Position numbers and translations under genes: made by a program
Shown here: positions 2,844 through 20,134 of the stretch, in pieces
Position numbering within the stretch: position 1 is the first letter of the stretch
How the letters are laid out: every line of letters begins with the position of its first letter
NCBI RefSeq assembly: GCF_036507355.1
Contig: NZ_AP027877.1
Length of the DNA stretch: 64,000 nt
From: Escherichia coli
GTDB lineage: Bacteria; Pseudomonadota; Gammaproteobacteria; Enterobacterales; Enterobacteriaceae
Direction: 5' to 3' (one strand)
The notes under the pieces: model-generated
Databases searched by the model: none
What the model was told of the DNA's origin: nothing
The model's input: only the letters and a program-made list of their open reading frames with translations

Positions 2844-3601
2844 TTATGGCAATGGGTTATTGGCCCGACGCGCCAGCCACTCTTTAATTTGCTGGCGATG
2901 CAGGCTAACGGAACGACCTACGACAACGACGATAAGTAGCGCACCGGAAAGGGCGCTGGACACCTGATTTGGCACTCCTGCCATTTGCAAACCTTGTTGC
3001 AAATATCCCACTAATAAAACCGCAATGGCGGTGCCGATAATGGAACCGGAACCACCATAAATATTGGCACCGCCAAGCACCACGGCGGTGATGGCGGGCA
3101 TCAGAAACGACGCACCGAGATCGGAACGTGCTGAACCAAAATACGACACCAGCAGCACAGCGGCGACCGCAGACGCCAGCCCCGTCATGGCATAGAGCGC
3201 ACATAAGGTACGGTTAACTGGAATCGCGCTATAAAGCGCCACGCGCGGGCTTTGCCCAATCAAAAACACGTTACGTCCGGCATGGGTTTTATGCAGCCAG
3301 AGCCAGAAAACGAGGAGACATATCAGGAAGATAATCAGCGGAACGGGGAGCCCCAACACATCCAGGTTAGCGAAATCTGTAAACGCCATCGGGAATCCAC
3401 CAATACCTTCGTACCCCGTCGCTCCGACCATCCCGGAAAGCAGCAGGGCGCTTCCGGCAAACAGATACAGCGTGCCAAGCGTAATCACCAGCGGGTTAAC
3501 TTTGGTATAGATAATTAATCCGGCGTTGATCAGCCCGCACAATGCGCCGAGCAGTAAGGTCAGGAGAATCGCCAGCGGCATCGGCACACCACTTTGAAAC
3601 A
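2844..3601 (-). pseudogene. lsrD: lsrD 3' fragment (C-terminal ~250 codons of the AI-2 ABC permease), cut off from its 5' end by the transposon
   Basis: ORF 2844..3587 is a polytopic permease C-terminus. Together with 9242..9481 it sums to 993 nt (330 codons plus stop) once the 5-bp duplication is counted once. Confidence 0.85.
3597..3601. repeat. 5-bp target-site duplication AAACA (left copy)
   Basis: Identical AAACA immediately outside both terminal inverted repeats (3597-3601 and 9242-9246). Confidence 0.8.
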
Positions 3602-3639
3602 GGGGGAACCGCAGAATTCGGAAAAAATCGTACGCTAAG
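3602..3639. repeat. left 38-bp terminal inverted repeat of the transposon
   Basis: GGGGGAACCGCAGAATTCGGAAAAAATCGTACGCTAAG; 35/38 match to the reverse complement of 9204-9241. Confidence 0.85.
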
Positions 3640-3790
3640 CTAACGGTGTTCTCGTGACAGCTCTTTGACTAGGCTTTCTAAGGCCATTCTGATAGCCCTG
3701 ACTTCCTGAAAAGCCATGGCTAAAATTTGTGCGGCTAAAAGGGATAACCGATGGTAAAGTAAGTTATCCCTGTCGAGATACTGAAAAGCG

Positions 3791-5368
3791 TTATCCTCGT
3801 TTTTCCCAAAACTGTTTTGCCAGTTCGCTCAGAGCGCTAGTTAACTGAGCGACAGATTTCGCACTTTGCAAATTATTCTGCCCGGTCTGTACATTGGTAT
3901 CAGCAGCATCGCGTATATTGATAATACTGCGGTTTATGTCTTCACTTACTGCTCCCTGCTGCTCGACCGCAGTCGCTATTTGCGCGTTCATGTCGGTAAT
4001 TTCGTTAACGCGTTGGCCAATTCCATCAAGAGCTGTAGCTGCTTCCTCTGCGTGAGCTACACTCGTGTGCGCTTGCCGACTACTTTGCTCCATGACTGTA
4101 ACAGCGGATTGCGCTCGCTCTTGTAGAGCGCTGATCATGCTTTGAATATCCGTTGTCGATTGCTGTGTGCGAGCAGCAAGACTGCGAACCTCATCGGCGA
4201 CAACAGCAAAACCACGCCCCTGCTCACCAGCACGCGCGGCCTCAATTGCTGCGTTGAGTGCCAACAAATTCGTTTGCTCGGCGATCCCTCGTATAACGTC
4301 AAGAACTTTTGATATCTCGTTACTTTGACCTTCAAGCTCATGAATAACCTGAGTGGCTTGCCTAATTTCACCTTCAAGGGCAGTGATTGACTGGCTTGTG
4401 TGGGCTACCAGACGCTGGCCAGATGCCGTCTCAGTGTCTGCTCTTCCGGCCGCATCTGCAGCATGCTGTGCATTGCTCGCAACCTCTTGAATGCTTGCCA
4501 CCATTTGGTTTACTGCCGTTGCTATTTGATCTGTCTCTGCCTGCTGCTCAACTGTAAGTACATTGCTTGACTCAATATCCTTTAGTAGGCCTCGGGTGTG
4601 TTCGCTAAGCCGATTTGATGCATCACCTATGCGACCTACTATGGCGCCTGTTTCAGCTTGCATCATTCGTAAAGCAAACTCTATTTGGCCAAACTCATCG
4701 GTGCGCCCAGTGTAGAGGGATTGACTTAATGGGTTATTGGAAATATTCTTGGCTCTTTCAACCAGTCTTCCAAGAGGAGAGAGAATAGCCAAAACACTAA
4801 CAGAGCTTAAGCTTCCTGACATTAAAGTGGCTAACAATAAGCTGCTTATTGATGTATCAGTAAGCATGCCGGCAGCCATTGCGCTTGATATAATACTACC
4901 CCATATGAGCAAGAGTATTTTCACGGAAAAGCTAGCAGCCAATTTCGGCCTCGCGGCCTTCCCGCTTCTCAATTGAGCATATAATTTTTCCGCAGCCAAA
5001 ACCTGCTCAGGTTCAGGCTTGGTCCTTACAGACTGGTATTCAACAATCGAACCATTCTTAGCTATTGGCGTTACATAAGCACTTACCCAATAGTGGTCGC
5101 CATTTTTACAGCGATTTTTTACTAGCCCCATCCATGAGCGGCCAGATTTTAATGTACTCCACATATGCTCAAATGCAGCAGGCGGCATATCTGGGTGTCT
5201 TACGATGTTGTGAGGCTGGCCTAATAGTTCTTCCTCAGTGAAACCACTGATTTTAATGAAGTCAGGATTAACGTACGTGATATGGCTTTGAGGGGAGGTA
5301 GTCGAAAGAATATTGGCATCTTTTGGGAGTTCTAAGTTTCGACCCGTCACTGGTAAATTCTGGCGCAT
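3791..5368 (-). CDS. methyl-accepting chemotaxis protein with N-terminal PAS domain (525 aa), transposon cargo
   Basis: PAS-like N-terminus ([10 protein letters not shown]...[12 protein letters not shown]), hydrophobic segment, conserved MCP signalling core ([38 protein letters not shown]). Confidence 0.8.
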
Positions 5369-5677
5369 AAGAACCTCAAGGGTTGGCTGTTTTATTTTAT
5401 TGTTTTCGGCATTAAGCCCAATTTCTTGAGCGTTACGATAAAGCTAGCATGGAAACGATAGGTGCAAGCAAGTTAAGGGTTGCATCGCGCATGTCAATCT
5501 AGGCTATACCCTAACTTGATGTCAGGCAGGGCCGCGCCGCTTCGTCAGAATAGAGTCTGCTTTCCCATTTTTTGACACATGCCCGCGAAGGTTATAGATT
5601 TCAGCCTGACAGAAATGGGCTTTGAGGCACAACGGAACAGAAAGTGCACTTAAGCCGCCTTCAACCAAGGAGACATC
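5369..5677. promoter_or_regulatory. putative res (resolution) site and divergent promoter region between chemoreceptor gene and tnpR
   Basis: Intergenic position typical of res in Tn21/Tn1721-type elements; inverted repeats TGTCAGGC / GCCTGACA near 5520 and 5605. Subsites not mapped. Confidence 0.4.
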
Positions 5678-6238
5678 GTGCAGGGGCACCGCATCGGCTA
5701 CGTCCGGGTCAGCAGCTTTGACCAGAACCCGGAACGCCAGCTGGAACAAACCCAGGTGAGCAAGGTGTTCACCGACAAGGCATCGGGCAAGGACACCCAG
5801 CGCCCCCAGCTCGAAGCGCTGCTGAGCTTCGTCCGCGAAGGCGATACAGTGGTGGTGCACAGCATGGATCGGCTGGCCCGCAACCTCGATGACCTGCGTC
5901 GCTTGGTACAGAAGCTGACTCAGCGCGGCGTGCGCATCGAGTTCCTGAAGGAGGGCCTGGTGTTCACTGGCGAGGACTCGCCGATGGCCAACCTGATGCT
6001 GTCGGTGATGGGGGCCTTCGCTGAGTTCGAGCGCGCCCTGATCCGCGAGCGGCAGCGTGAGGGCATCGCCTTGGCCAAGCAGCGTGGCGCGTACCGGGGC
6101 CGCAAGAAAGCCCTGTCCGATGAGCAGGCTGCTACCCTGCGGCAGCGAGCGACGGCCGGCGAGCCCAAGGCGCAGCTTGCCCGCGAGTTCAACATCAGCC
6201 GGGAAACCCTCTACCAGTACCTCCGCACGGACGACTGA
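5678..6238 (+). CDS. tnpR: serine recombinase, Tn3-family resolvase TnpR (186 aa)
   Basis: Resolvase N-terminal catalytic motif (GYVRVSSFDQNPERQ), C-terminal HTH; close to Tn21/Tn1721 TnpR. Confidence 0.9.
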   Translation: MQGHRIGYVRVSSFDQNPERQLEQTQVSKVFTDKASGKDTQRPQLEALLSFVREGDTVVVHSMDRLARNLDDLRRLVQKLTQRGVRIEFLKEGLVFTGEDSPMANLMLSVMGAFAEFERALIRERQREGIALAKQRGAYRGRKKALSDEQAATLRQRATAGEPKAQLAREFNISRETLYQYLRTDD

Positions 6239-6241
6239 CAC

Positions 6242-9208
6242 ATGCCGCGTCGCTTGATCCTCTCGGCCACGGAGCGGGACACCCTGCTTGCGCTGCCGGA
6301 AAGCCAGGATGACCTGATCCGCTACTACACCTTCAACGACTCCGACCTGTCGCTGATCCGCCAGCGACGCGGCGACGCCAACCGCCTCGGCTTCGCCGTG
6401 CAGCTCTGCCTGCTGCGCTACCCCGGTTACGCGCTGGGAACCGACAGCGAGCTGCCCGAGCCGGTCATCCTGTGGGTGGCGAAGCAAGTCCAGGCCGAGC
6501 CGGCGAGCTGGGCAAAGTACGGCGAGCGCGACGTGACCCGTCGCGAGCATGCCCAGGAACTGCGCACCTACCTGCAACTGGCCCCGTTCGGCCTGTCCGA
6601 CTTCCGCGCCCTGGTGCGCGAGCTAACCGAGCTGGCCCAGCAGACCGACAAAGGCTTGCTGCTGGCCGGTCAGGCCCTGGAGAGCCTACGGCAGAAACGA
6701 CGCATCCTGCCGGCGCTGAGCGTGATTGACCGGGCCTGCTCGGAAGCCATTGCGCGAGCCAATCGGCGGGTCTACCGCGCCCTGGTCGAACCACTCACGG
6801 ACTCGCATCGGGCCAAGCTGGACGAGCTGTTGAAGCTCAAGGCCGGCAGCAGCATCACCTGGTTGACCTGGCTGCGCCAGGCACCGCTGAAACCCAACTC
6901 TCGGCACATGCTGGAACACATCGAGCGGCTGAAGACATTTCAGTTGGTGGACTTGCCCGAAGGCCTGGGCCGGCACATCCACCAGAACCGCCTGCTCAAG
7001 CTGGCCCGCGAGGGTGGGCAGATGACGCCCAAAGACCTCGGTAAGTTCGAGCCGCAGCGCCGCTACGCGACCCTGGCCGCCGTGGTGCTGGAGAGCACCG
7101 CGACCGTGATCGATGAGCTGGTCGATCTGCATGACCGCATCCTGGTCAAGCTGTTCAGCGGCGCGAAGCACAAGCATCAGCAGCAGTTCCAGAAGCAGGG
7201 CAAGGCGATCAACGACAAGGTGCGCCTGTACTCCAGGATCGGCCAGGCGCTGCTGGAAGCGAAGGAAAGCGGCAGCGACCCCTATGCCGCCATCGAGGCG
7301 GTGATTCCCTGGGACGAGTTCACCGAGAGCGTCAGCGAGGCCGAGCTGCTGGCCCGGCCGGAAGGCTTCGACCACCTGCACCTGGTCGGCGAGAACTTCG
7401 CCACCCTGCGCCGTTACACGCCGGCCTTGCTGGAGGTGCTGGAACTGCGCGCCGCGCCGGCCGCGCAAGGCGTGCTGGCAGCCGTGCAGACCCTGCGTGA
7501 GATGAACGCCGACAACCTGCGCAAGGTGCCGGCCGATGCACCCACGGCCTTCATCAAGCCGCGCTGGAAGCCGCTGGTGATCACCCCGGAAGGCCTCGAC
7601 CGGAAATTCTACGAAATCTGCGCCCTGTCCGAGCTGAAGAACGCCCTGCGCTCCGGCGACATCTGGGTCAAGGGCTCGCGGCAGTTCCGCGACTTCGACG
7701 ACTACCTGCTGCCGGCCGAGAAGTTCGCCGCACTCAAGCGCGAGCAGGCCCTGCCCCTGGCGATCAACCCGAACAGCGACCAGTACCTGGAAGAGCGTTT
7801 GCAGCTGCTGGACGAGCAGTTGGCCACCGTCACCCGCCTGGCCAAGGACAACGAGCTGCCCGATGCCATCCTCACCGAGTCAGGGCTGAAAATCACCCCG
7901 CTGGATGCGGCGGTGCCGGATCGGGCGCAGGCGCTGATCGACCAAACCAGCCAGTTACTGCCGCGCATCAAGATCACCGAACTGCTGATGGACGTGGACG
8001 ACTGGACGGGCTTCAGCCGCCACTTCACCCACTTGAAGGACGGGGCCGAGGCCAAAGACAGGACGTTGCTGCTGTCCGCAATCCTCGGTGATGCGATCAA
8101 CCTCGGGCTGACCAAGATGGCCGAGTCGAGCCCCGGCCTGACCTACGCCAAGCTGTCCTGGCTGCAAGCCTGGCACATCCGCGACGAAACCTATTCGGCG
8201 GCCTTGGCCGAGCTGGTCAACCACCAGTATCGCCACGCCTTTGCCGCCCACTGGGGCGACGGCACGACCTCATCCTCCGATGGCCAGCGCTTCCGCGCGG
8301 GTGGCCGGGGCGAGAGCACCGGGCACGTCAACCCGAAGTACGGTAGCGAGCCGGGACGGCTGTTCTATACCCATATCTCCGACCAGTACGCGCCGTTCAG
8401 CACCCGCGTGGTGAATGTCGGCGTCCGCGATTCCACCTATGTGCTCGACGGCCTGCTGTACCACGAGTCCGACCTGCGGATCGAGGAGCACTACACCGAC
8501 ACGGCCGGCTTCACCGATCACGTCTTTGCCCTGATGCACCTGCTAGGCTTCCGCTTCGCGCCGCGCATCCGCGACCTCGGCGAAACCAAGCTGTACGTGC
8601 CGCAGGGCGTGCAAGCCTACCCGACGTTGCGCCCGCTGATCGGCGGCACCCTGAACATCAAGCACGTGCGTGCCCACTGGGACGACATCCTGCGCCTGGC
8701 CAGCTCGATCAAGCAGGGCACCGTCACCGCCTCGCTGATGCTGCGCAAGCTCGGCAGCTACCCGCGCCAGAACGGACTGGCCGTGGCCCTGCGCGAGCTG
8801 GGCCGGATCGAGCGCACGCTGTTCATCCTGGACTGGCTGCAAAGTGTTGAACTGCGCCGCCGCGTGCATGCCGGCCTGAACAAAGGTGAGGCGCGCAACT
8901 CGCTGGCCAGGGCGGTGTTCTTCAACCGCCTTGGGGAAATCAGGGATCGGAGCTTCGAGCAGCAGCGCTACCGGGCCAGCGGCCTCAACCTGGTGACGGC
9001 GGCTATCGTGCTGTGGAACACGGTGTACCTGGAACGCGCCACCCAGGGGTTGGTCGAGGCCGGCAAGCCGGTGGACGGCGAGCTGCTGCAATTCCTGTCG
9101 CCGCTGGGCTGGGAGCACATCAACCTAACCGGCGATTACGTCTGGCGGCAGAGCCGCAGACTGGAAGACGGGAAGTTTCGGCCCTTACGGATGCCCGGAA
9201 AACCTTAG
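6242..9208 (+). CDS. tnpA: Tn3-family transposase TnpA (988 aa)
   Basis: 988-aa ORF, typical Tn3/Tn21 transposase length; 3' end runs into the right inverted repeat, as is usual in this family. Confidence 0.9.
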
Positions 9209-9241
9209 CGTACGATTTTTTCCGAATTCTGCGGGCTCCCC
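9204..9241. repeat. right 38-bp terminal inverted repeat of the transposon
   Basis: CTTAGCGTACGATTTTTTCCGAATTCTGCGGGCTCCCC; reverse complement matches the Tn1721-type IR. Confidence 0.85.
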
Positions 9242-13318: not shown

Positions 13319-14848
13319 ATGGCTCGACTCTTTACCCCTTCAGAATCAAAGTATTACCTGATGGCGCTGGATGCAGGCACCGGAAGTATTCGGGCTGTGA
13401 TATTCGACCTGGAAGGCAATCAAATAGCAGTGGGACAGGCGGAGTGGCGGCATCTGGCAGTACCGGACGTTCCTGGTTCTATGGAATTTGATCTCAACAA
13501 AAACTGGCAACTGGCGTGTGAGTGTATGCGCCAGGCGCTGCACAACGCCGGCATAGCCCCGGAGTATATCGCTGCCGTTTCGGCATGTTCGATGCGTGAA
13601 GGCATTGTTTTATATAACAATGAAGGAACACCGATCTGGGCCTGCGCCAATGTGGATGCCAGAGCGGCGCGCGAAGTTAGCGAACTTAAAGAACTGCACA
13701 ACAATACCTTTGAAAACGAAGTTTATCGCGCGACCGGACAAACGCTGGCTTTAAGTGCCATCCCCAGATTACTTTGGCTGGCCTATATGCTCAGCGGCGA
13801 ACTTGCGGTGGATCCCTCTAACGCTGGCACCACGGGACTTCTTGATCTAACCATCCGTGACTGGAAACCTGCATTGCTGGATATGGCTGGCCTGCGTGCC
13901 GATATTCTTTCTCCTGTCAAAGAAACCGGCACATTGCTGGGCGTGGTAAGTTCACAAGCGGCGGAACTCTGCGGTCTGAAGGCGGGCACTCCGGTGGTCG
14001 TTGGAGGAGGCGACGTGCAGCTTGGTTGCCTGGGGTTAGGCGTTGTGCGTCCGGCACAAACCGCGGTTCTTGGCGGCACATTCTGGCAGCAAGTTGTAAA
14101 TTTAGCCGCGCCGGTGACAGACCCAGAAATGAACGTGCGCGTTAATCCTCATGTTATTCCTGGCATGGTACAAGCTGAATCTATAAGCTTTTTTACCGGA
14201 CTCACCATGCGCTGGTTCCGCGATGCTTTCTGTGCCGAAGAAAAACTGATTGCCGAACGTTTAGGCATCGACACCTATACGCTGCTGGAAGAGATGGCCA
14301 GTCGGGTGCCGCCTGGGTCGTGGGGCGTAATGCCGATCTTCTCCGACAGAATGCGCTTTAAAACCTGGTATCACGCTGCGCCTTCCTTTATTAACTTGTC
14401 CATTGACCCGGATAAATGTAACAAAGCGACATTGTTCCGTGCGCTGGAAGAAAATGCGGCGATTGTATCAGCGTGTAACTTGCAGCAAATTGCTGATTTC
14501 TCGAATATTCATCCTTCATCGTTAGTCTTTGCAGGCGGAGGTTCAAAAGGGAAATTATGGAGTCAAATTCTCGCTGATGTCTCGGGATTACCCGTCAATA
14601 TTCCGGTAGTCAAAGAAGCCACCGCATTAGGATGTGCCATTGCAGCTGGCGTCGGTGCCGGAATTTTTTCATCAATGGCAGAAAACGGAGAACGCCTGGT
14701 TCGCTGGGAACGGACGCACACACCAGACCCAGAAAAGCATGAACTTTATCAGGATTCACGCGATAAGTGGCAGGCAGTTTATCAGGATCAGCTGGGGCTG
14801 GTTGATCATGGACTGACGACGTCGTTATGGAAAGCGCCTGGGTTATAG
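13319..14848 (+). CDS. lsrK: autoinducer-2 kinase LsrK (FGGY carbohydrate kinase), 509 aa here
   Basis: FGGY-kinase N-terminus ([13 protein letters not shown]), lsrRK context; in-frame stop immediately upstream of the ATG at 13319. Shorter than the ~530 aa I recall for K-12. Confidence 0.85.
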
Positions 14849-15060
14849 TTTCATTGACAGCCACATCATGATGACCGTGGCTGTTAGTTTTTGAGTATAG
14901 TTATTCTTATTTCCCTTCTTTTAGAGCTGGCTTGTTAAATGCCAGCTTGCAGATTCATCGTTCCATCACCAGTACTATATTCAAGGGAAAATTGCTATTT
15001 TTCTTGGTGATGCTGCCAACTTACTGATTTAGTGTATGATGGTGTTTTTGAGGTGCTCCA

Positions 15061-15336
15061 GTGGCTTCTGTTTCTATCAGCTGTCCCTCCTGTTCAGCTA
15101 CTGACGGGGTGGTGCGTAACGGCAAAAGCACCGCCGGACATCAGCGCTATCTCTGCTCTCACTGCCGTAAAACATGGCAACTGCAGTTCACTTACACCGC
15201 TTCTCAACCCGGTACGCACCAGAAAATCATTGATATGGCCATGAATGGCGTTGGATGCCGGGCAACAGCCCGCATTATGGGCGTTGGCCTCAACACGATT
15301 TTACGTCACTTAAAAAACTCAGGCCGCAGTCGGTAA
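15061..15336 (+). CDS. insA: IS1 InsA (91 aa)
   Basis: [43 protein letters not shown]... zinc-finger/HTH InsA. Confidence 0.95.
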
Positions 15337-15758
15337 CCTCGCGCATACAGCCGGGCAGTGACGTCATCGTCTGCGCGGAAATGGACGAACAGTGGGGCTA
15401 TGTCGGGGCTAAATCGCGCCAGCGCTGGCTGTTTTACGCGTATGACAGGCTCCGGAAGACGGTTGTTGCGCACGTATTCGGTGAACGCACGATGGCGACG
15501 CTGGGGCGTCTTATGAGCCTGCTGTCACCCTTTGACGTGGTGATATGGATGACGGATGGCTGGCCGCTGTATGAATCCCGCCTGAAGGGAAAGCTGCACG
15601 TAATCAGCAAGCGATATACGCAGCGAATTGAGCGGCATAACCTGAATCTGAGGCAGCACCTGGCACGGCTGGGACGGAAGTCGCTGTCGTTCTCAAAATC
15701 GGTGGAGCTGCATGACAAAGTCATCGGGCATTATCTGAACATAAAACACTATCAATAA
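15255..15758 (+). CDS. insB: IS1 InsB reading frame (167 aa; the transposase InsAB' is made by -1 frameshift at the A-run near 15310)
   Basis: Canonical InsB sequence; TTAAAAAAC slippery run in the insA/insB overlap. Confidence 0.9.
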
Positions 15759-15773
15759 GTTGGAGTCATTACC

Positions 15774-17755
15774 GGAATTTCCTCGGAACGGGCGAAGCTT
15801 TCCGCTATATCTATATCGGTGATGCTGGCGATGGTGAACTTAATGTCTCGAGTGAAGGCAAAGTAGATTCGGGAATTATCACTGCGGGGATGAAAGAAAC
15901 AGGCACAGGCAACATTACTGTTAAGGATAAGAACTCCGTTATCACTAATCTCGGAACTAATCTTGGTTATGACGGCCACGGCAAAATGAATATCAGTAAT
16001 GAGGGGCTTGTTGTCAGCAACGGAGGAAGCTCTCTCGGTTATGGAGAAACCGGCGTCGGGAAGGTTAGCATCACCACGGGGGGGATATGGGAGGTCAATA
16101 AGAATGTCTATACCACCATTGGTGTTGCGGGCGTCGGAAACCTCAATATTAGCGATGGCGGTAAGTTCGTATCGCAAAATATTACTTTTTTGGGCGATAA
16201 AGCAAGCGGTATCGGCACTCTGAACCTGATGGATGCGACATCATCGTTCGATACTGTGGGTATCAATGTCGGTAATTTTGGTAGCGGTATCGTAAATGTC
16301 AGTAATGGTGCCACCCTTAATTCAACGGGCTATGGATTTATCGGAGGAAATACCTCCGGTAAGGGGATAGTTAATATTTCAACGGATAGTCTCTGGAATT
16401 TAAAGACATCATCTACTAACGCCCAATTGCTACAGGTCGGTGTATTAGGCACGGGTGAACTGAATATTACCACCGGAGGTATAGTTAAAGCGCGTGATAC
16501 ACAGATAGCTCTCAATGACAAAAGTAAGGGCGACGTGAGGGTGGATGGGCAGAACTCTCTTCTTGAAACATTCAATATGTACGTAGGGACATCTGGTACG
16601 GGTACGTTAACCCTGACGAATAGCGGCACGCTGAATGTCGAAGGTGGAGAAGTTTACTTAGGTGTTTTTGAACCTGCTGTAGGAACGCTAAACATTGGTG
16701 CAGCTCACGGTGAGGCGGCGGCAGATGCCGGGTATATAACCAACGCGACGAAAGTAGAGTTTGGTTCTGGCGAAGGTGTTTTTGTCTTTAATCATACTAA
16801 TAACAGTGATGCCGGCTACCAGGTCGATATGCTGATTACAGGTGACGATAAAGACGGAAAAGTGATCCATGATGCAGGCCATACGGTGTTCAATGCAGGG
16901 AATACTTATAGCGGTAAAACGCTGGTCAATGACGGCATCCTGACCATTGCGTCTCATACGGCAGATGGGGTAACGGGCATGGGTTCGAGTGAAGTAACCA
17001 TTGCAAGCCCCGGTACGCTCGACATTCTCGCATCAACGAACAGTGCAGGAGATTACACGCTGACCAATGCGCTCAAAGGCGATGGCTTGATGCGAGTGCA
17101 GCTGTCATCCTCCGACAAGATGTTTGGCTTTACCCATGCAACAGGGACTGAATTCGCCGGTGTTGCCCAAGTGAAAGACAGTACCTTCACTCTGGAACGC
17201 GACAACACCGCTGCGCTTACTCACGCGATGTTGCAGTCTGACAGTGAAAATACCACATCGGTAAAAGTTGGAGAGCAATCCATTGGTGGACTGGCCATGA
17301 ATGGAGGTACCCTCATTTTCGATATCCAGGTCTTTCAGTGGTTGATTGGCGCAACGGATGGCCATGCAAAAAACTTCTCCGTATTTATTCAGGCTGGCGG
17401 CAGTTATCGACTCACGCCATTTTACGACATCATTTCAGCATTTCCGGTATTGGGTGGCGCGGGAATACACATCAGCGATCTCAAACTGGCAATGGGGCTT
17501 AACGCATCCAAAGGCAAAAAAACGGCAATCGATAAAATTTATCCGCGACATTTTTTGGCGACAGCAAAGGTGCTGAGATTCCCGGAAGTGCAGATGCATG
17601 AAATCCTGAGTGACTTTGCCAGAATGATTCCGGCAGCACTGGATAACGTGAAGACTTCATTACCGACAGATTTTCCAGAGAACGTGGTGACGGCAGTTGA
17701 AACCAATGTGTTGAGGTTGCACGGTCGGTTAAGCCGAGAATACGGTATTAAGTAA
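15774..17755 (+). pseudogene. chimeric remnant: AIDA-like autotransporter passenger fragment (ydeK/yneO-like, 5' end removed by IS1, no beta-barrel domain) fused in frame to the 3' end of hipA
   Basis: N-terminal ~480 codons are Gly/Thr/Asn/Ser-rich beta-helix repeats; the last ~142 codons are the HipA C-terminus. Confidence 0.7.
17327..17755 (+). pseudogene. hipA: hipA 3' fragment (C-terminal ~142 codons of the HipA kinase toxin, including the catalytic loop); hipB and the hipA 5' part are absent
   Basis: QVFQWLIGATDGHAKNFSVFIQAGGSYRLTPFYDIISAFPVLGG...RLHGRLSREYGIK matches the HipA C-terminus; the N-terminal domain and ATP-binding region are not upstream. Confidence 0.75.
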
Positions 17756-18008
17756 GAGTAAGATATGGGGTTTGGTCGTTGTTAATGAGCAGGACAATCA
17801 TGACCGCCAACGACTAGATTCTTCCTTGGTTTATGTTGGTGCGCATAATGTATATTATGTTAAATCACCTACTGTGGTAAATAAGTTCATATGACACTCC
17901 CACTAACTGATAAATCAATACGTTAGGATTTCTGATCTCCCTCTCGTTTCTTGCATTAGGTACAGAGTACATTCTCTTCATATCCATGATAATTTTGAGG
18001 TAAATATT

Positions 18009-18720
18009 GTGTATTCACTAAAGCAGTTGGTTATCTCAGGCCGTAAAAGGCGATGGATCCTGATGGACTTGGAAACCTCTCTGCCGTTGCTGTATCCCCT
18101 TAGGTACCATATTGACCATTTGGCTTTCCGCTCATTGTCCACACAGTCAGCTTCACTTCAATCTGTGAAGTTTTTTTACGAATTCTGGAGGCAAAAGTAT
18201 GGTGTCTCGTTTTGCTACAGCTTCTATTCATCTGACCACAATCCAGACATTGCTGTCGGTGAAATGCCCGCATTTTGGATGTATCTAGAAAATGGCCACA
18301 ACGTCCAGTCAAATGTGTTGTCTTTAACGAGAGTCACAAAAGCCAATAGCTTAACTCATACAGTTAGAGTTCGTGCTGTGATCCATTTCATTTCTTTTTT
18401 GATTAACACCTACATATCACCTGCATACCGGGATGACTCTCCCAAAGCATTATCACTTTTGGCTTCGCGTTTACACACCCGTTTACAGCTTTGCCGGGAG
18501 AATTATCGAACGCTTACATCAAACAAATTTTCGCAACATAGTCACAGCAGCCAAGGATTTCAGAGTTTGTCTGGGGCAATGGTGCTCAGCCTGTATGGAA
18601 TAATAACCCCCTCTTCTGCCCAAAAGCATAACCCGCTAAATCCTTTCCCTTCCGGGCATCTTCAGTTCCGCAATTTTTTGATTATTCGTCTGTTGTTAAA
18701 TTATGGTTTACGAACAGGTG
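18009..18720 (+). pseudogene. tyrosine recombinase / phage-integrase-family gene, N-terminal fragment truncated by IS1
   Basis: AT-rich ORF with an integrase-like N-terminal motif (LQSVKFFYEFW) and the start of a box-I-like motif (LLLNYGLRTGG) just before the IS1 boundary. Weak assignment, no search run. Confidence 0.35.
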
Positions 18721-18775
18721 GGTGATGCTGCCAACTTACTGATTTAGTGTATGATGGTGTTTTTGAGGTGCTCCA

Positions 18776-19051
18776 GTGGCTTCTGTTTCTATCAGCTGTC
18801 CCTCCTGTTCAGCTACTGACGGGGTGGTGCGTAACGGCAAAAGCACCGCCGGACATCAGCGCTATCTCTGCTCTCACTGCCGTAAAACATGGCAACTGCA
18901 GTTCACTTACACCGCTTCTCAACCCGGTACGCACCAGAAAATCATTGATATGGTCATGAATGGCGTTGGATGCCGGGCAACAGCCCGCATTATGGGCGTT
19001 GGCCTCAACACGATTTTACGTCACTTAAAAAACTCAGGCCGCAGTCGGTAA
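18776..19051 (+). CDS. insA: IS1 InsA (91 aa)
   Basis: Identical to copy-1 InsA except one residue (MVMNG vs MAMNG). Confidence 0.95.
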
Positions 19052-19473
19052 CCTCGCGCATACAGCCGGGCAGTGACGTCATCGTCTGCGCGGAAATGGA
19101 CGAACAGTGGGGCTATGTCGGGGCTAAATCGCGCCAGCGCTGGCTGTTTTACGCGTATGACAGGCTCCGGAAGACGGTTGTTGCGCACGTATTCGGTGAA
19201 CGCACGATGGCGACGCTGGGGCATCTTATGAGCCTGCTGTCACCCTTTGACGTGGTGATATGGATGACGGATGGCTGGCCGCTGTATGAATCCCGCCTGA
19301 AGGGAAAGCTGCACGTAATCAGCAAGCGATATACGCAGCGAATTGAGCGGCATAACCTGAATCTGAGGCAGCACCTGGCACGGCTGGGACGGAAGTCGCT
19401 GTCGTTCTCAAAATCGGTGGAGCTGCATGACAAAGTCATCGGGCATTATCTGAACATAAAACACTATCAATAA
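18970..19473 (+). CDS. insB: IS1 InsB reading frame (167 aa)
   Basis: Identical to copy-1 InsB except one residue (LGHLMS vs LGRLMS). Confidence 0.9.
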
Positions 19474-19488
19474 GTTGGAGTCATTACC

Positions 19489-20134
19489 TGCTTGCCATAG
19501 CACCGTTGCCAACGCAGCTGTCGCACTGGGTGCGACTCGGGTAATTTATCCGGAAAACCAGAAACAGGTTTTATTGCCTGTCACGAATAATGATCCTGCC
19601 AGTGTCTATCTCATTCAGTCATGGATAGAAAATGCAGGTGACCAAAAAGACACCCAGTTTGTCATTACCCCACCGCTTTTTTCCATGCAAGGTAAAAAAG
19701 AGAATACGCTGCGGATAATCAACGCCACTAATCATCAGTTACCAGGCGACCGTGAAAGCCTGTTCTGGGTGAATGTTAAAGCTATTCCTGCTATGGAAAA
19801 AGACCAGAAGAATGAGAATACATTACAGCTGGCAATTATTAGCCGCATAAAAATGTTTTATCGCCCCACGAACCTGGCAATGGCACCTGAAGAAGCGCAT
19901 GCAATGCTTCGGTTTCGTCGCAGCGGTAGCAAACTCACTCTTATTAATCCAACGCCCTACTTCATTACCGTAACAAATATGAAAGCAGGAAATAGCAATC
20001 TCCCAAACACCATGGTGCCGCCAAAAGGTGAAGTGTCGGTGGATATCCCGCATGCTGCCACCGGGGATATCAGTTTTCAGACGATCAATGATTACGGCGC
20101 ATTAACTCCGCGTATTAAGGCAACCATGCAGTAA
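19489..20134 (+). pseudogene. periplasmic fimbrial chaperone (PapD/FimC family), 5' end and signal-peptide region removed by IS1
   Basis: Reading frame opens directly at the IS1 end with a mature chaperone N-terminus (..RVIYPENQKQ..) and immunoglobulin-like chaperone domains; no own start codon or promoter. Confidence 0.75.

What the first reader, a model, noticed from the sequence alone, without database searches (positions are those of the whole stretch)
15006..19488. Two directly repeated IS1 copies without target duplications bracket a scrambled 2.9-kb remnant
The IS1 copies (15006-15773 and 18721-19488) are in the same orientation, differ at only two nucleotides, and none of the four 9-bp flanks match each other (ATTTTTCTT / GGAATTTCC / GAACAGGTG / TGCTTGCCA). 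Absence of duplications implies IS1-mediated deletions or inversions rather than simple insertions. Everything between them is fragmentary. The pair also forms a composite-transposon-like unit that could mediate further deletion.
Basis: seen in the sequence. Interest (0 to 1): 0.65.

Follow-up and report, generated by a model that had tools for sequence, protein, structure and literature searches.

The report
Two IS1 copies bordering deletion scars
Two copies of the common jumping gene IS1 sit at the edges of deletions in a decaying stretch of an E. coli-type chromosome (lsr, autotransporter, hipBA, F9 fimbriae); this is ordinary, well-known insertion-sequence damage, and the DNA between them is still in its original order.

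Summary
Two complete 768-bp IS1 elements lie at 15006-15773 and 18721-19488 in direct orientation. They differ at two bases, and no 7-14-bp flank combination forms a target duplication.

The interior is not scrambled. Against intact E. coli loci and 100%-identical draft relatives, every piece keeps its ancestral order and orientation: lsrK, IS1, internal autotransporter fragment, hipA 3' end, left end of an integrase island, IS1, then an F9 chaperone lacking its first 65 nt.

Each IS1 replaces missing DNA:
- The left copy replaces 1382 bp, the autotransporter promoter and 5' end.
- The right copy replaces the rest of the island plus yneL', F9 fimA and the chaperone start.
- A third, IS-free, in-frame 2205-bp deletion sits at 17324/17325.

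Both junctions of the right IS1 appear in independent assemblies of relatives that lack the left copy. The right copy is therefore real and older, and the pair arose in place rather than by transposing as a unit. The left copy is identical to a widespread IS1A variant; the right copy has two private changes.

The best explanation is two separate IS1 insertions, each followed by a one-sided deletion. Whether that deletion came from IS1 adjacent deletion or IS1-IS1 recombination is unresolved. There are no inversions. This is a known phenomenon of low interest.

The parts
13319..14848 (+). lsrK (autoinducer-2 kinase). It carries an in-frame 63-bp deletion (509 aa instead of 530). It and the 157-bp downstream spacer form the left flank of the left IS1.
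15006..15773 (+). Left IS1 (IS1A type). insA is at 15061-15336, the insB' frame at 15255-15758, and the A6C frameshift motif TTAAAAAAC at 15310-15318. It replaces 1382 bp of ancestral DNA (L009 11688-13069): the autotransporter promoter region and the first ~1009 nt of the gene. It is specific to this strain.
15774..17324 (+). Internal fragment of the ECSE_1600-family autotransporter passenger domain (nt 1010-2560 of the 5421-nt gene). It lacks the signal peptide and the beta-barrel.
17325..17755 (+). 3' end of hipA (codons 298-440), fused in frame to the autotransporter fragment by an IS-free deletion. Relative to close relatives 2205 bp are missing, and that gap swallows an older 2021-bp deletion that had removed hipB. 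The fusion reads as a 621-aa ORF, 15890-17755.
17756..17867 (+). Spacer downstream of hipA, running up to the island insertion site.
17868..18720 (+). Left end of a genomic island. It holds the first 237 codons (18009-18720) of a 464-aa site-specific integrase. The rest of the island is missing.
18721..19488 (+). Right IS1. It is the same variant as the left copy plus two private nonsynonymous changes (InsA A60V, InsB' R85H). It replaces the rest of the island, yneL', F9 fimA and the first 65 nt of the chaperone gene. Both of its junctions are shared with relatives.
19489..20134 (+). F9 (yde) fimbrial chaperone gene lacking its first 65 nt (start codon and signal peptide). It is followed by an intact usher gene at 20176-22827.

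Best explanation
The region is the lsrK / ECSE_1600 autotransporter / hipBA / F9-fimbriae segment of an E. coli-type chromosome, worn down by successive deletions. It has not been rearranged. Two IS1A-type elements arrived independently and at different times, and each now marks one edge of a deletion.

Right copy (older): it lies between codon 237 of an island integrase and nt 66 of the F9 chaperone gene. The rest of the island, yneL', F9 fimA and the chaperone start are gone.

Left copy (recent, strain-specific): it lies between the AT-rich spacer after lsrK and nt 1010 of the autotransporter gene. 1382 bp are gone.

The most likely route for each copy is a normal IS1 insertion with a 9-bp duplication, followed by an IS1-promoted adjacent deletion (intramolecular transposition from one IS end into nearby DNA). 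That keeps the IS and one original flank and destroys the duplication. This route is inferred, not shown.

A separate deletion of 2205 bp at 17324/17325 involves no IS. The two direct IS1 copies are therefore a by-product of decay in place, not a transposon that moved in.
For: What the sequence comparisons show:
- Intact-type loci L001-L004 place the window segments in ancestral order and strand, with gaps exactly at the IS1 ends.
- Relatives L009-L011 are 100% identical in the shared DNA. They carry the 1382 bp in place of the left IS1 and the 2205 bp missing at 17324/17325.
- The L010 contig runs 28 bp into IS1 at the same integrase junction. L014 and L015 start inside IS1 and cross the same chaperone junction. 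In one assembly (GCA_016660925.1), contigs stop 6 bp before and start 3 bp after the right IS1.
- The intact island sits at the same site in 96 complete genomes.
- Both IS1 copies have full ends, insA/insB' and the frameshift motif.
- The left IS1 is 100% identical to a widespread variant. The right IS1 has no exact match among the ~75,000 IS1 places found in 5,426 complete genomes.

Support for the inferred route:
- The same intergenic region shows a simple IS1 insertion with a 9-bp duplication (L007).
- It also shows an independent IS1-plus-1522-bp-deletion allele with different endpoints (L019).
- The literature attributes duplication-less IS copies to adjacent deletions or IS-IS recombination, and every such case traced in the LTEE was multistep (PMC11708052).
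Against: No intermediate was found for either copy, meaning an IS1 at one of these junctions with its 9-bp duplication intact. Adjacent deletion therefore cannot be told apart from IS1-IS1 recombination or from a one-step insertion-with-deletion. The left IS1 and the 2205-bp deletion appear only in this window, with no independent assembly. The size of the right-hand deletion is unknown, because the island's original length in this lineage is unknown.
Confidence: 0.85

Rival explanations
1. Each duplication-less IS1 is the survivor of RecA-dependent homologous recombination between two directly oriented IS1 copies. Both had inserted normally, each with its own 9-bp duplication, at the two endpoints. 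The recombination deleted the interval and one copy.
For: IS1 is abundant in this region in other strains and often in the same orientation. There is an IS1 in the same integrase gene ~440 bp downstream (L012) and others inside the island (L017, L006). One sits just upstream of the chaperone (L013), and 18 genomes have an IS1 within a few hundred bp of the lsrK flank. The literature lists this as a frequent cause of missing duplications.
Against: No genome or contig carries an IS1 at any of the four exact endpoints with a duplication. The 100%-identical relatives have no IS1 at either endpoint of the left deletion. This route would therefore need two new insertions plus a recombination within a very short evolutionary time, against one insertion plus one deletion.
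Confidence: 0.3
2. One-step event: IS1 inserted and the adjacent DNA was lost in the same transposition reaction, so no duplication was ever made.
For: No intermediate exists among relatives that are 100% identical in the flanks. PMC11708052 proposes such events for IS5 and IS481. L019 shows a second, independent IS1-plus-~1.5-kb-deletion allele at the same place.
Against: The sampling of relatives is small. In the only systematic test read here, all 14 IS-associated deletions were multistep. Nothing in the sequence separates one step from two.
Confidence: 0.1
3. The pair is a Tn9-like composite transposon that transposed into this locus as a unit, or the second copy is an assembly duplication.
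For: Two intact IS1 copies in direct orientation flank a 2.9-kb segment, the same geometry as Tn9 (established knowledge; geometry seen).
Against: The interior is the native local sequence in native order. The outer flanks do not match (3 of 9). No other complete genome has the unit. Relatives have the right copy alone. The copies differ at two bases and have four distinct flanks, and independent assemblies break at both junctions of the right copy.
Confidence: 0.02

Closest known systems
IS1 (IS1A-type) and IS1-promoted adjacent deletions, the classical gal/bio deletions of E. coli K-12
   Same: A 768-bp element with imperfect terminal repeats, insA/insB' and an A6C frameshift. One IS end is joined precisely to DNA that originally lay further along the same side. 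The IS is retained and the 9-bp duplication is lost.
   Different: The two-step history is inferred here, because no intermediate was recovered. In both copies the end that now abuts the less AT-rich new junction is the right (IRR) end, which is only a weak hint to direction.
Tn9-type composite transposon (direct IS1 repeats flanking cargo)
   Same: Two intact IS1 copies in direct orientation around a 2.9-kb segment. The outer ends are intact, so the unit is competent in principle.
   Different: The cargo is native pseudogene debris.
IS-marked deletion scars in E. coli B / LTEE lines and Shigella genome decay
   Same: IS copies without duplications at the edges of deletions that inactivate surface structures and accessory genes. 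The same locus is hit repeatedly (L007, L012, L013, L019).
   Different: This is a natural isolate lineage with low IS density: only these two IS copies, plus one Tn3-family transposon, in 64 kb.

Membership tests
IS1 family insertion sequence | About 768 bp with ~23-bp imperfect terminal inverted repeats | tested here: met
   Both copies are 768 bp. The ends GGTGATGCTGCCAACTTACTGAT and GGTAATGACTCCAACTTATTGAT match at 18 of 23 positions.
IS1 family insertion sequence | insA and insB' reading frames joined by a -1 frameshift at an A6C motif; the transposase matches the IS1 model | tested here: met
   The 91-aa InsA and the InsB' frame hit NF033558 transpos_IS1 (E 7.5e-26 and 1.8e-42). TTAAAAAAC is at IS positions 305-313.
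IS1 family insertion sequence | 9-bp (occasionally 8-14-bp) direct target duplication at a simple insertion | tested here: not met
   No flank pairing matches at 7-14 bp. This is explained by deletions abutting each copy. A simple IS1 insertion in the same spacer in L007 does show a 9-bp duplication.
IS-promoted adjacent deletion | The IS end is joined to sequence that in the ancestor lies further along on the same side, in the same orientation, with everything in between missing | tested here: met
   Left copy: L009 11687 | IS1 | 13070. Right copy: integrase codon 237 | IS1 | chaperone nt 66.
IS-promoted adjacent deletion | The IS was present at one of the two junctions before the deletion (an intermediate with a duplication) | tested here: inconclusive
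   No such intermediate was found in 5,426 complete genomes or in the draft relatives recovered. The sampling of the lineage is thin.
Composite transposon (Tn9-like) | Two IS copies flank a segment with their outer ends intact | tested here: met
Composite transposon (Tn9-like) | A target duplication flanks the whole unit, or the unit occurs in a second context | tested here: not met
   The outer flanks ATTTTTCTT and TGCTTGCCA match at 3 of 9 positions. No complete genome holds the unit. Relatives have the right copy only.

The most novel reading that the evidence does not exclude
The left IS1 may be a natural example of a single-step 'insertion-with-deletion' transposition that never makes a target duplication. 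Flank-identical relatives show no IS1 at either endpoint, and an unrelated lineage (L019) has independently produced almost the same IS1-plus-1.5-kb deletion removing the autotransporter promoter and 5' end. That parallel could also mean selection for silencing this autotransporter.
Probability: 0.1. Interest if true: 0.4.

Novelty: already known. Interest (0 to 1): 0.12.

Why it matters
The finding matters little beyond annotation. It shows that in this strain the autotransporter, hipBA, the F9 fimbrial operon (major subunit lost, chaperone beheaded) and an inserted island are all dead. The IS1 pair is a scar of stepwise decay, not a mobile unit or an inversion. The reconstruction gives a dated order of events that could serve as lineage markers: the right IS1 is shared with relatives, while the left IS1, the 2205-bp deletion and the Tn3-family insertion in lsrD are strain-specific. 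The repeated, independent IS1 hits at the lsrK-autotransporter boundary are a mild example of a local IS1 hot spot or of parallel gene loss.

Tried and rejected
- Exact-protein look-ups for the 621-aa fusion ORF and for the truncated integrase (220-aa form) found nothing. The look-up with the 509-aa LsrK allele is what recovered the close relatives.
- Junction-spanning 160-bp queries for all four IS1 junctions against 5,426 complete E. coli genomes found no shared junction. They found only two-piece hits to nearby, independent IS1 copies.
- Inversion or scrambling was rejected because every segment aligns on the + strand in ancestral order.
- The idea that the left IS1 is a copy of the right IS1 was rejected. 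The left copy equals the widespread variant, and the right copy carries two extra private changes. Replicative intramolecular transposition would also give a deletion or an inversion, not direct repeats around collinear DNA (established knowledge of replicative transposition).
- Local AT content as a guide to which flank was the original insertion site (25% and 35% GC at the two left sites, 52% and 48% at the right sites) is kept only as a weak hint. Both the first insertion and the intramolecular step choose targets.
- A hit would not change the verdict.
- The source organism was not identified. The best complete E. coli genome is only 99.2% identical over 24 kb of neighbouring core.
Full report
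**1. Checking the observation**

The window holds two 768-bp repeats at 15006-15773 and 18721-19488, both on the + strand. They are the only long repeat family in the 64 kb. They differ at IS1 positions 234 (C/T) and 503 (G/A) and nowhere else.

Each copy has the features of a complete IS1:
- The terminal repeats GGTGATGCTGCCAACTTACTGAT and GGTAATGACTCCAACTTATTGAT.
- A 91-aa insA and an overlapping insB' frame, both matching the NCBIfam IS1 transposase model.
- The TTAAAAAAC frameshift motif.

No pairing of left and right flanks gives a duplication at 7, 8, 9, 10 or 14 bp, including the outer and inner pairs; the 9-bp comparisons match at no more than 3 of 9 positions. No reverse-strand match exists either.

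**2. What the locus is**

The open reading frames and comparison with complete E. coli genomes identify the neighbourhood:
- Upstream are lsrA (-), lsrR and lsrK (+).
- Downstream are the F9 (yde) fimbrial chaperone, usher, ydeS, ydeR and ydeQ.

In intact-type genomes (L001-L004) the order is lsrK, a 530-bp spacer, a 5.4-kb ECSE_1600-family autotransporter gene, hipB, hipA, a yneL remnant, F9 fimA, chaperone, usher.

BLAST of the window against these loci gives a strictly collinear, same-strand map:

| Window segment | Matches in L001 | Identity |
|---|---|---|
| 13775-15005 | 276-1506 | lsrK 3' end and spacer |
| 15006-15773 | (none) | left IS1 |
| 15774-17324 | 2889-4439 | interior of the autotransporter passenger |
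| 17325-17867 | 8175-8711 | hipA codons 298-440 and downstream spacer |
| 17868-18720 | no match | see below |
| 18721-19488 | (none) | right IS1 |
| 19489 onward | 10545 onward | chaperone from nt 66 |

Nothing is inverted or transposed, so 'scrambled' is wrong. The interior is a chain of deletion remnants.

**3. The unmatched 853 bp**

Segment 17868-18720 is the left end of a genomic island. In 96 complete E. coli genomes the island sits at exactly this site downstream of hipA, 100% identical across the junction. It begins with a 464-aa site-specific integrase, followed by a second integrase and a long hypothetical gene. It carries defence-type genes and is itself riddled with IS elements. 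The window keeps only the first 237 codons of the first integrase, and the right IS1 starts immediately after them.

**4. Close relatives give the order of events**

An exact-sequence look-up with the unusual 509-aa LsrK of the window recovered three draft contigs: L009, L010 and L011. They are 100% identical to the window over all shared DNA. Compared with the window:
- They lack the left IS1 and carry 1382 bp in its place (L009 11688-13069).
- They carry 2205 bp that the window lacks at 17324/17325.
- They lack a 5.6-kb insertion at window 3602-9241.

L010 continues 28 bp into IS1 at the same integrase junction, and L011 stops 6 bp short of it. A second look-up with the usher protein found contigs that begin inside IS1 (L014, L015) or 3 bp after it (L016) and cross the same IS1-chaperone junction. 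One assembly, GCA_016660925.1, supplies both sides.

Three conclusions follow:
- The right IS1 with both its junctions is real and shared by the lineage.
- The left IS1 is a later, strain-specific addition.
- The pair was built in place and did not arrive as a unit.

**5. Anatomy of the breakpoints**

*Left IS1.* The ancestral sequence ...GCTATTTTTCTT|AAAGCATTA... lies in a 25% GC spacer. It is joined through IS1 to ...GGTCATT|GGAATTTCC... inside the autotransporter gene.

*Right IS1.* The integrase sequence ...ACGAACAGGTG|AGCTATTG... is joined through IS1 to the chaperone sequence ...TTGCTCTT|TGCTTGCCA....

*The 17324/17325 junction.* It has no IS and no microhomology. The loss is in frame (2205 = 3 x 735) and produces the 621-aa autotransporter::HipA open reading frame at 15890-17755. 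That ORF has no signal peptide, no beta-barrel and only the last 143 residues of HipA. The gap swallows an older, lineage-wide 2021-bp deletion that had already removed hipB and fused the autotransporter to hipA codon 5, giving a 1731-aa ORF in the relatives.

**6. Where the two IS1 copies came from**

The left copy is 100% identical to an IS1A-type variant found on many E. coli chromosomes and plasmids. The right copy has no exact match among the ~75,000 IS1 places found in 5,426 complete genomes. Its best match is the left-copy variant at 99.7%. Its two private changes are both nonsynonymous: InsA A60V and InsB' R85H. This fits an older resident copy drifting and a recent newcomer. The left copy is not a daughter of the right copy.

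**7. Mechanism**

What is shown: each IS1 end abuts DNA that in the ancestor lay further along the same strand, with the interval missing.

What is inferred: how that came about. I favour a normal insertion with a 9-bp duplication, followed by an IS1-promoted adjacent deletion. In this reaction an IS end attacks nearby DNA by intramolecular transposition. The IS and one original flank are kept, and the interval is lost.

The main rival is RecA-mediated recombination between two direct IS1 copies inserted at the two endpoints. A one-step insertion-with-deletion is a minor rival. The literature read here names adjacent deletion and IS-IS recombination as the usual reasons for missing duplications. 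It also found every traceable case in the long-term evolution lines to be multistep (PMC11708052).

I could not discriminate between these routes. No genome or contig carries an IS1 with a duplication at any of the four endpoints. For the left copy, parsimony favours one insertion plus one deletion over two insertions plus a recombination, because flank-identical relatives have no IS1 at either endpoint.

**8. The region is a repeated IS1 target**
- Eighteen complete genomes have an IS1 within a few hundred bp of the same lsrK flank.
- L007 has a simple IS1 insertion in the same spacer with a clean 9-bp duplication.
- L019 (GCA_045581395.1) has the identical IS1 variant in the same orientation with a 1522-bp deletion (L001 1403-2924). 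This nearly parallels the window's 1382 bp (L001 1507-2888) but has different endpoints.
- Other strains have IS1 in the same integrase gene (L012) or just upstream of the chaperone with fimA deleted (L013).

**9. Comparison with known systems**

The elements are ordinary IS1A-type IS1. The only family feature they fail is the target duplication, and the deletions account for that.

The geometry resembles Tn9, with direct IS1 repeats. The defining evidence for a composite transposon is absent: there is no flanking duplication and no second occurrence. The stepwise history argues against it.

The direct repeats lie 3715 bp apart start to start. They could recombine to leave a single IS1 between ATTTTTCTT and TGCTTGCCA. 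That is a reasonable prediction, not a result.

**10. Verdict**

The phenomenon is already well known, and interest is low.

Noticed in passing
window 3602-9241: A 5640-bp Tn3-family transposon of the TnAs1/Tn1722 type is inserted in the lsrD permease gene with a clean 5-bp duplication (AAACA). It carries a PAS-domain chemoreceptor-like gene (3791-5368, - strand), a resolvase (5678-6238), a transposase (6242-9208) and 38-bp terminal repeats. It is 100% identical to copies on many plasmids and absent from the flank-identical relatives L009-L011.
   Followed up: partly
window 13319-14848 (deletion point near 13782): lsrK carries an in-frame 63-bp deletion between two TGGCTGGC repeats (509 aa instead of 530). 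The close relatives share it. This allele was the handle that recovered those relatives.
   Followed up: partly
window 17324/17325; L009 12061-17256: Relatives encode a 1731-aa in-frame fusion of the autotransporter (with its signal peptide) to almost all of HipA, made by a 2021-bp deletion that removed the beta-barrel, hipB and hipA codons 1-4. The window has a further in-frame 2205-bp deletion with no IS and no microhomology.
   Followed up: partly
window 17867/17868; L005 16019 onward; L009 17367 onward; L018-L020: The spot just downstream of hipA is used by two different large islands that share a module of three long consecutive genes (integrase-like). Type A is the remnant seen here; it occurs in 96 complete genomes and carries an ATP-dependent nuclease plus a UvrD-type helicase. 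Type B carries HamA plus a helicase and is also found in non-lsr contexts. The two types have similar end sequences (TAAGTTCAT).
   Followed up: partly
L019 2109-2876 (GCA_045581395.1) and L007 7287-8054: An independent lineage (L019) has the identical IS1 variant in the same orientation between lsrK and the autotransporter, with a 1522-bp deletion whose endpoints lie 104 bp and 36 bp from the window's. Another strain (L007) has a simple IS1 insertion with a 9-bp duplication in the same spacer. This suggests an IS1 hot spot or parallel loss of the autotransporter.
   Followed up: partly
L015 and L016 ends, corresponding to window ~23430-23433: Short-read contigs of relatives break at about window 23433 (just past ydeS). 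L015 continues for 28 bp with sequence not present in the window, which suggests another repeat or IS inserted there in those relatives but not in this strain.
   Followed up: no
window 24000-48000: The neighbouring core genes (ydeP to dosP) are collinear with E. coli, but the best of 5,426 complete genomes is only 99.2% identical. The source lineage is therefore not closely represented among complete RefSeq E. coli genomes. The organism was not identified.
   Followed up: no
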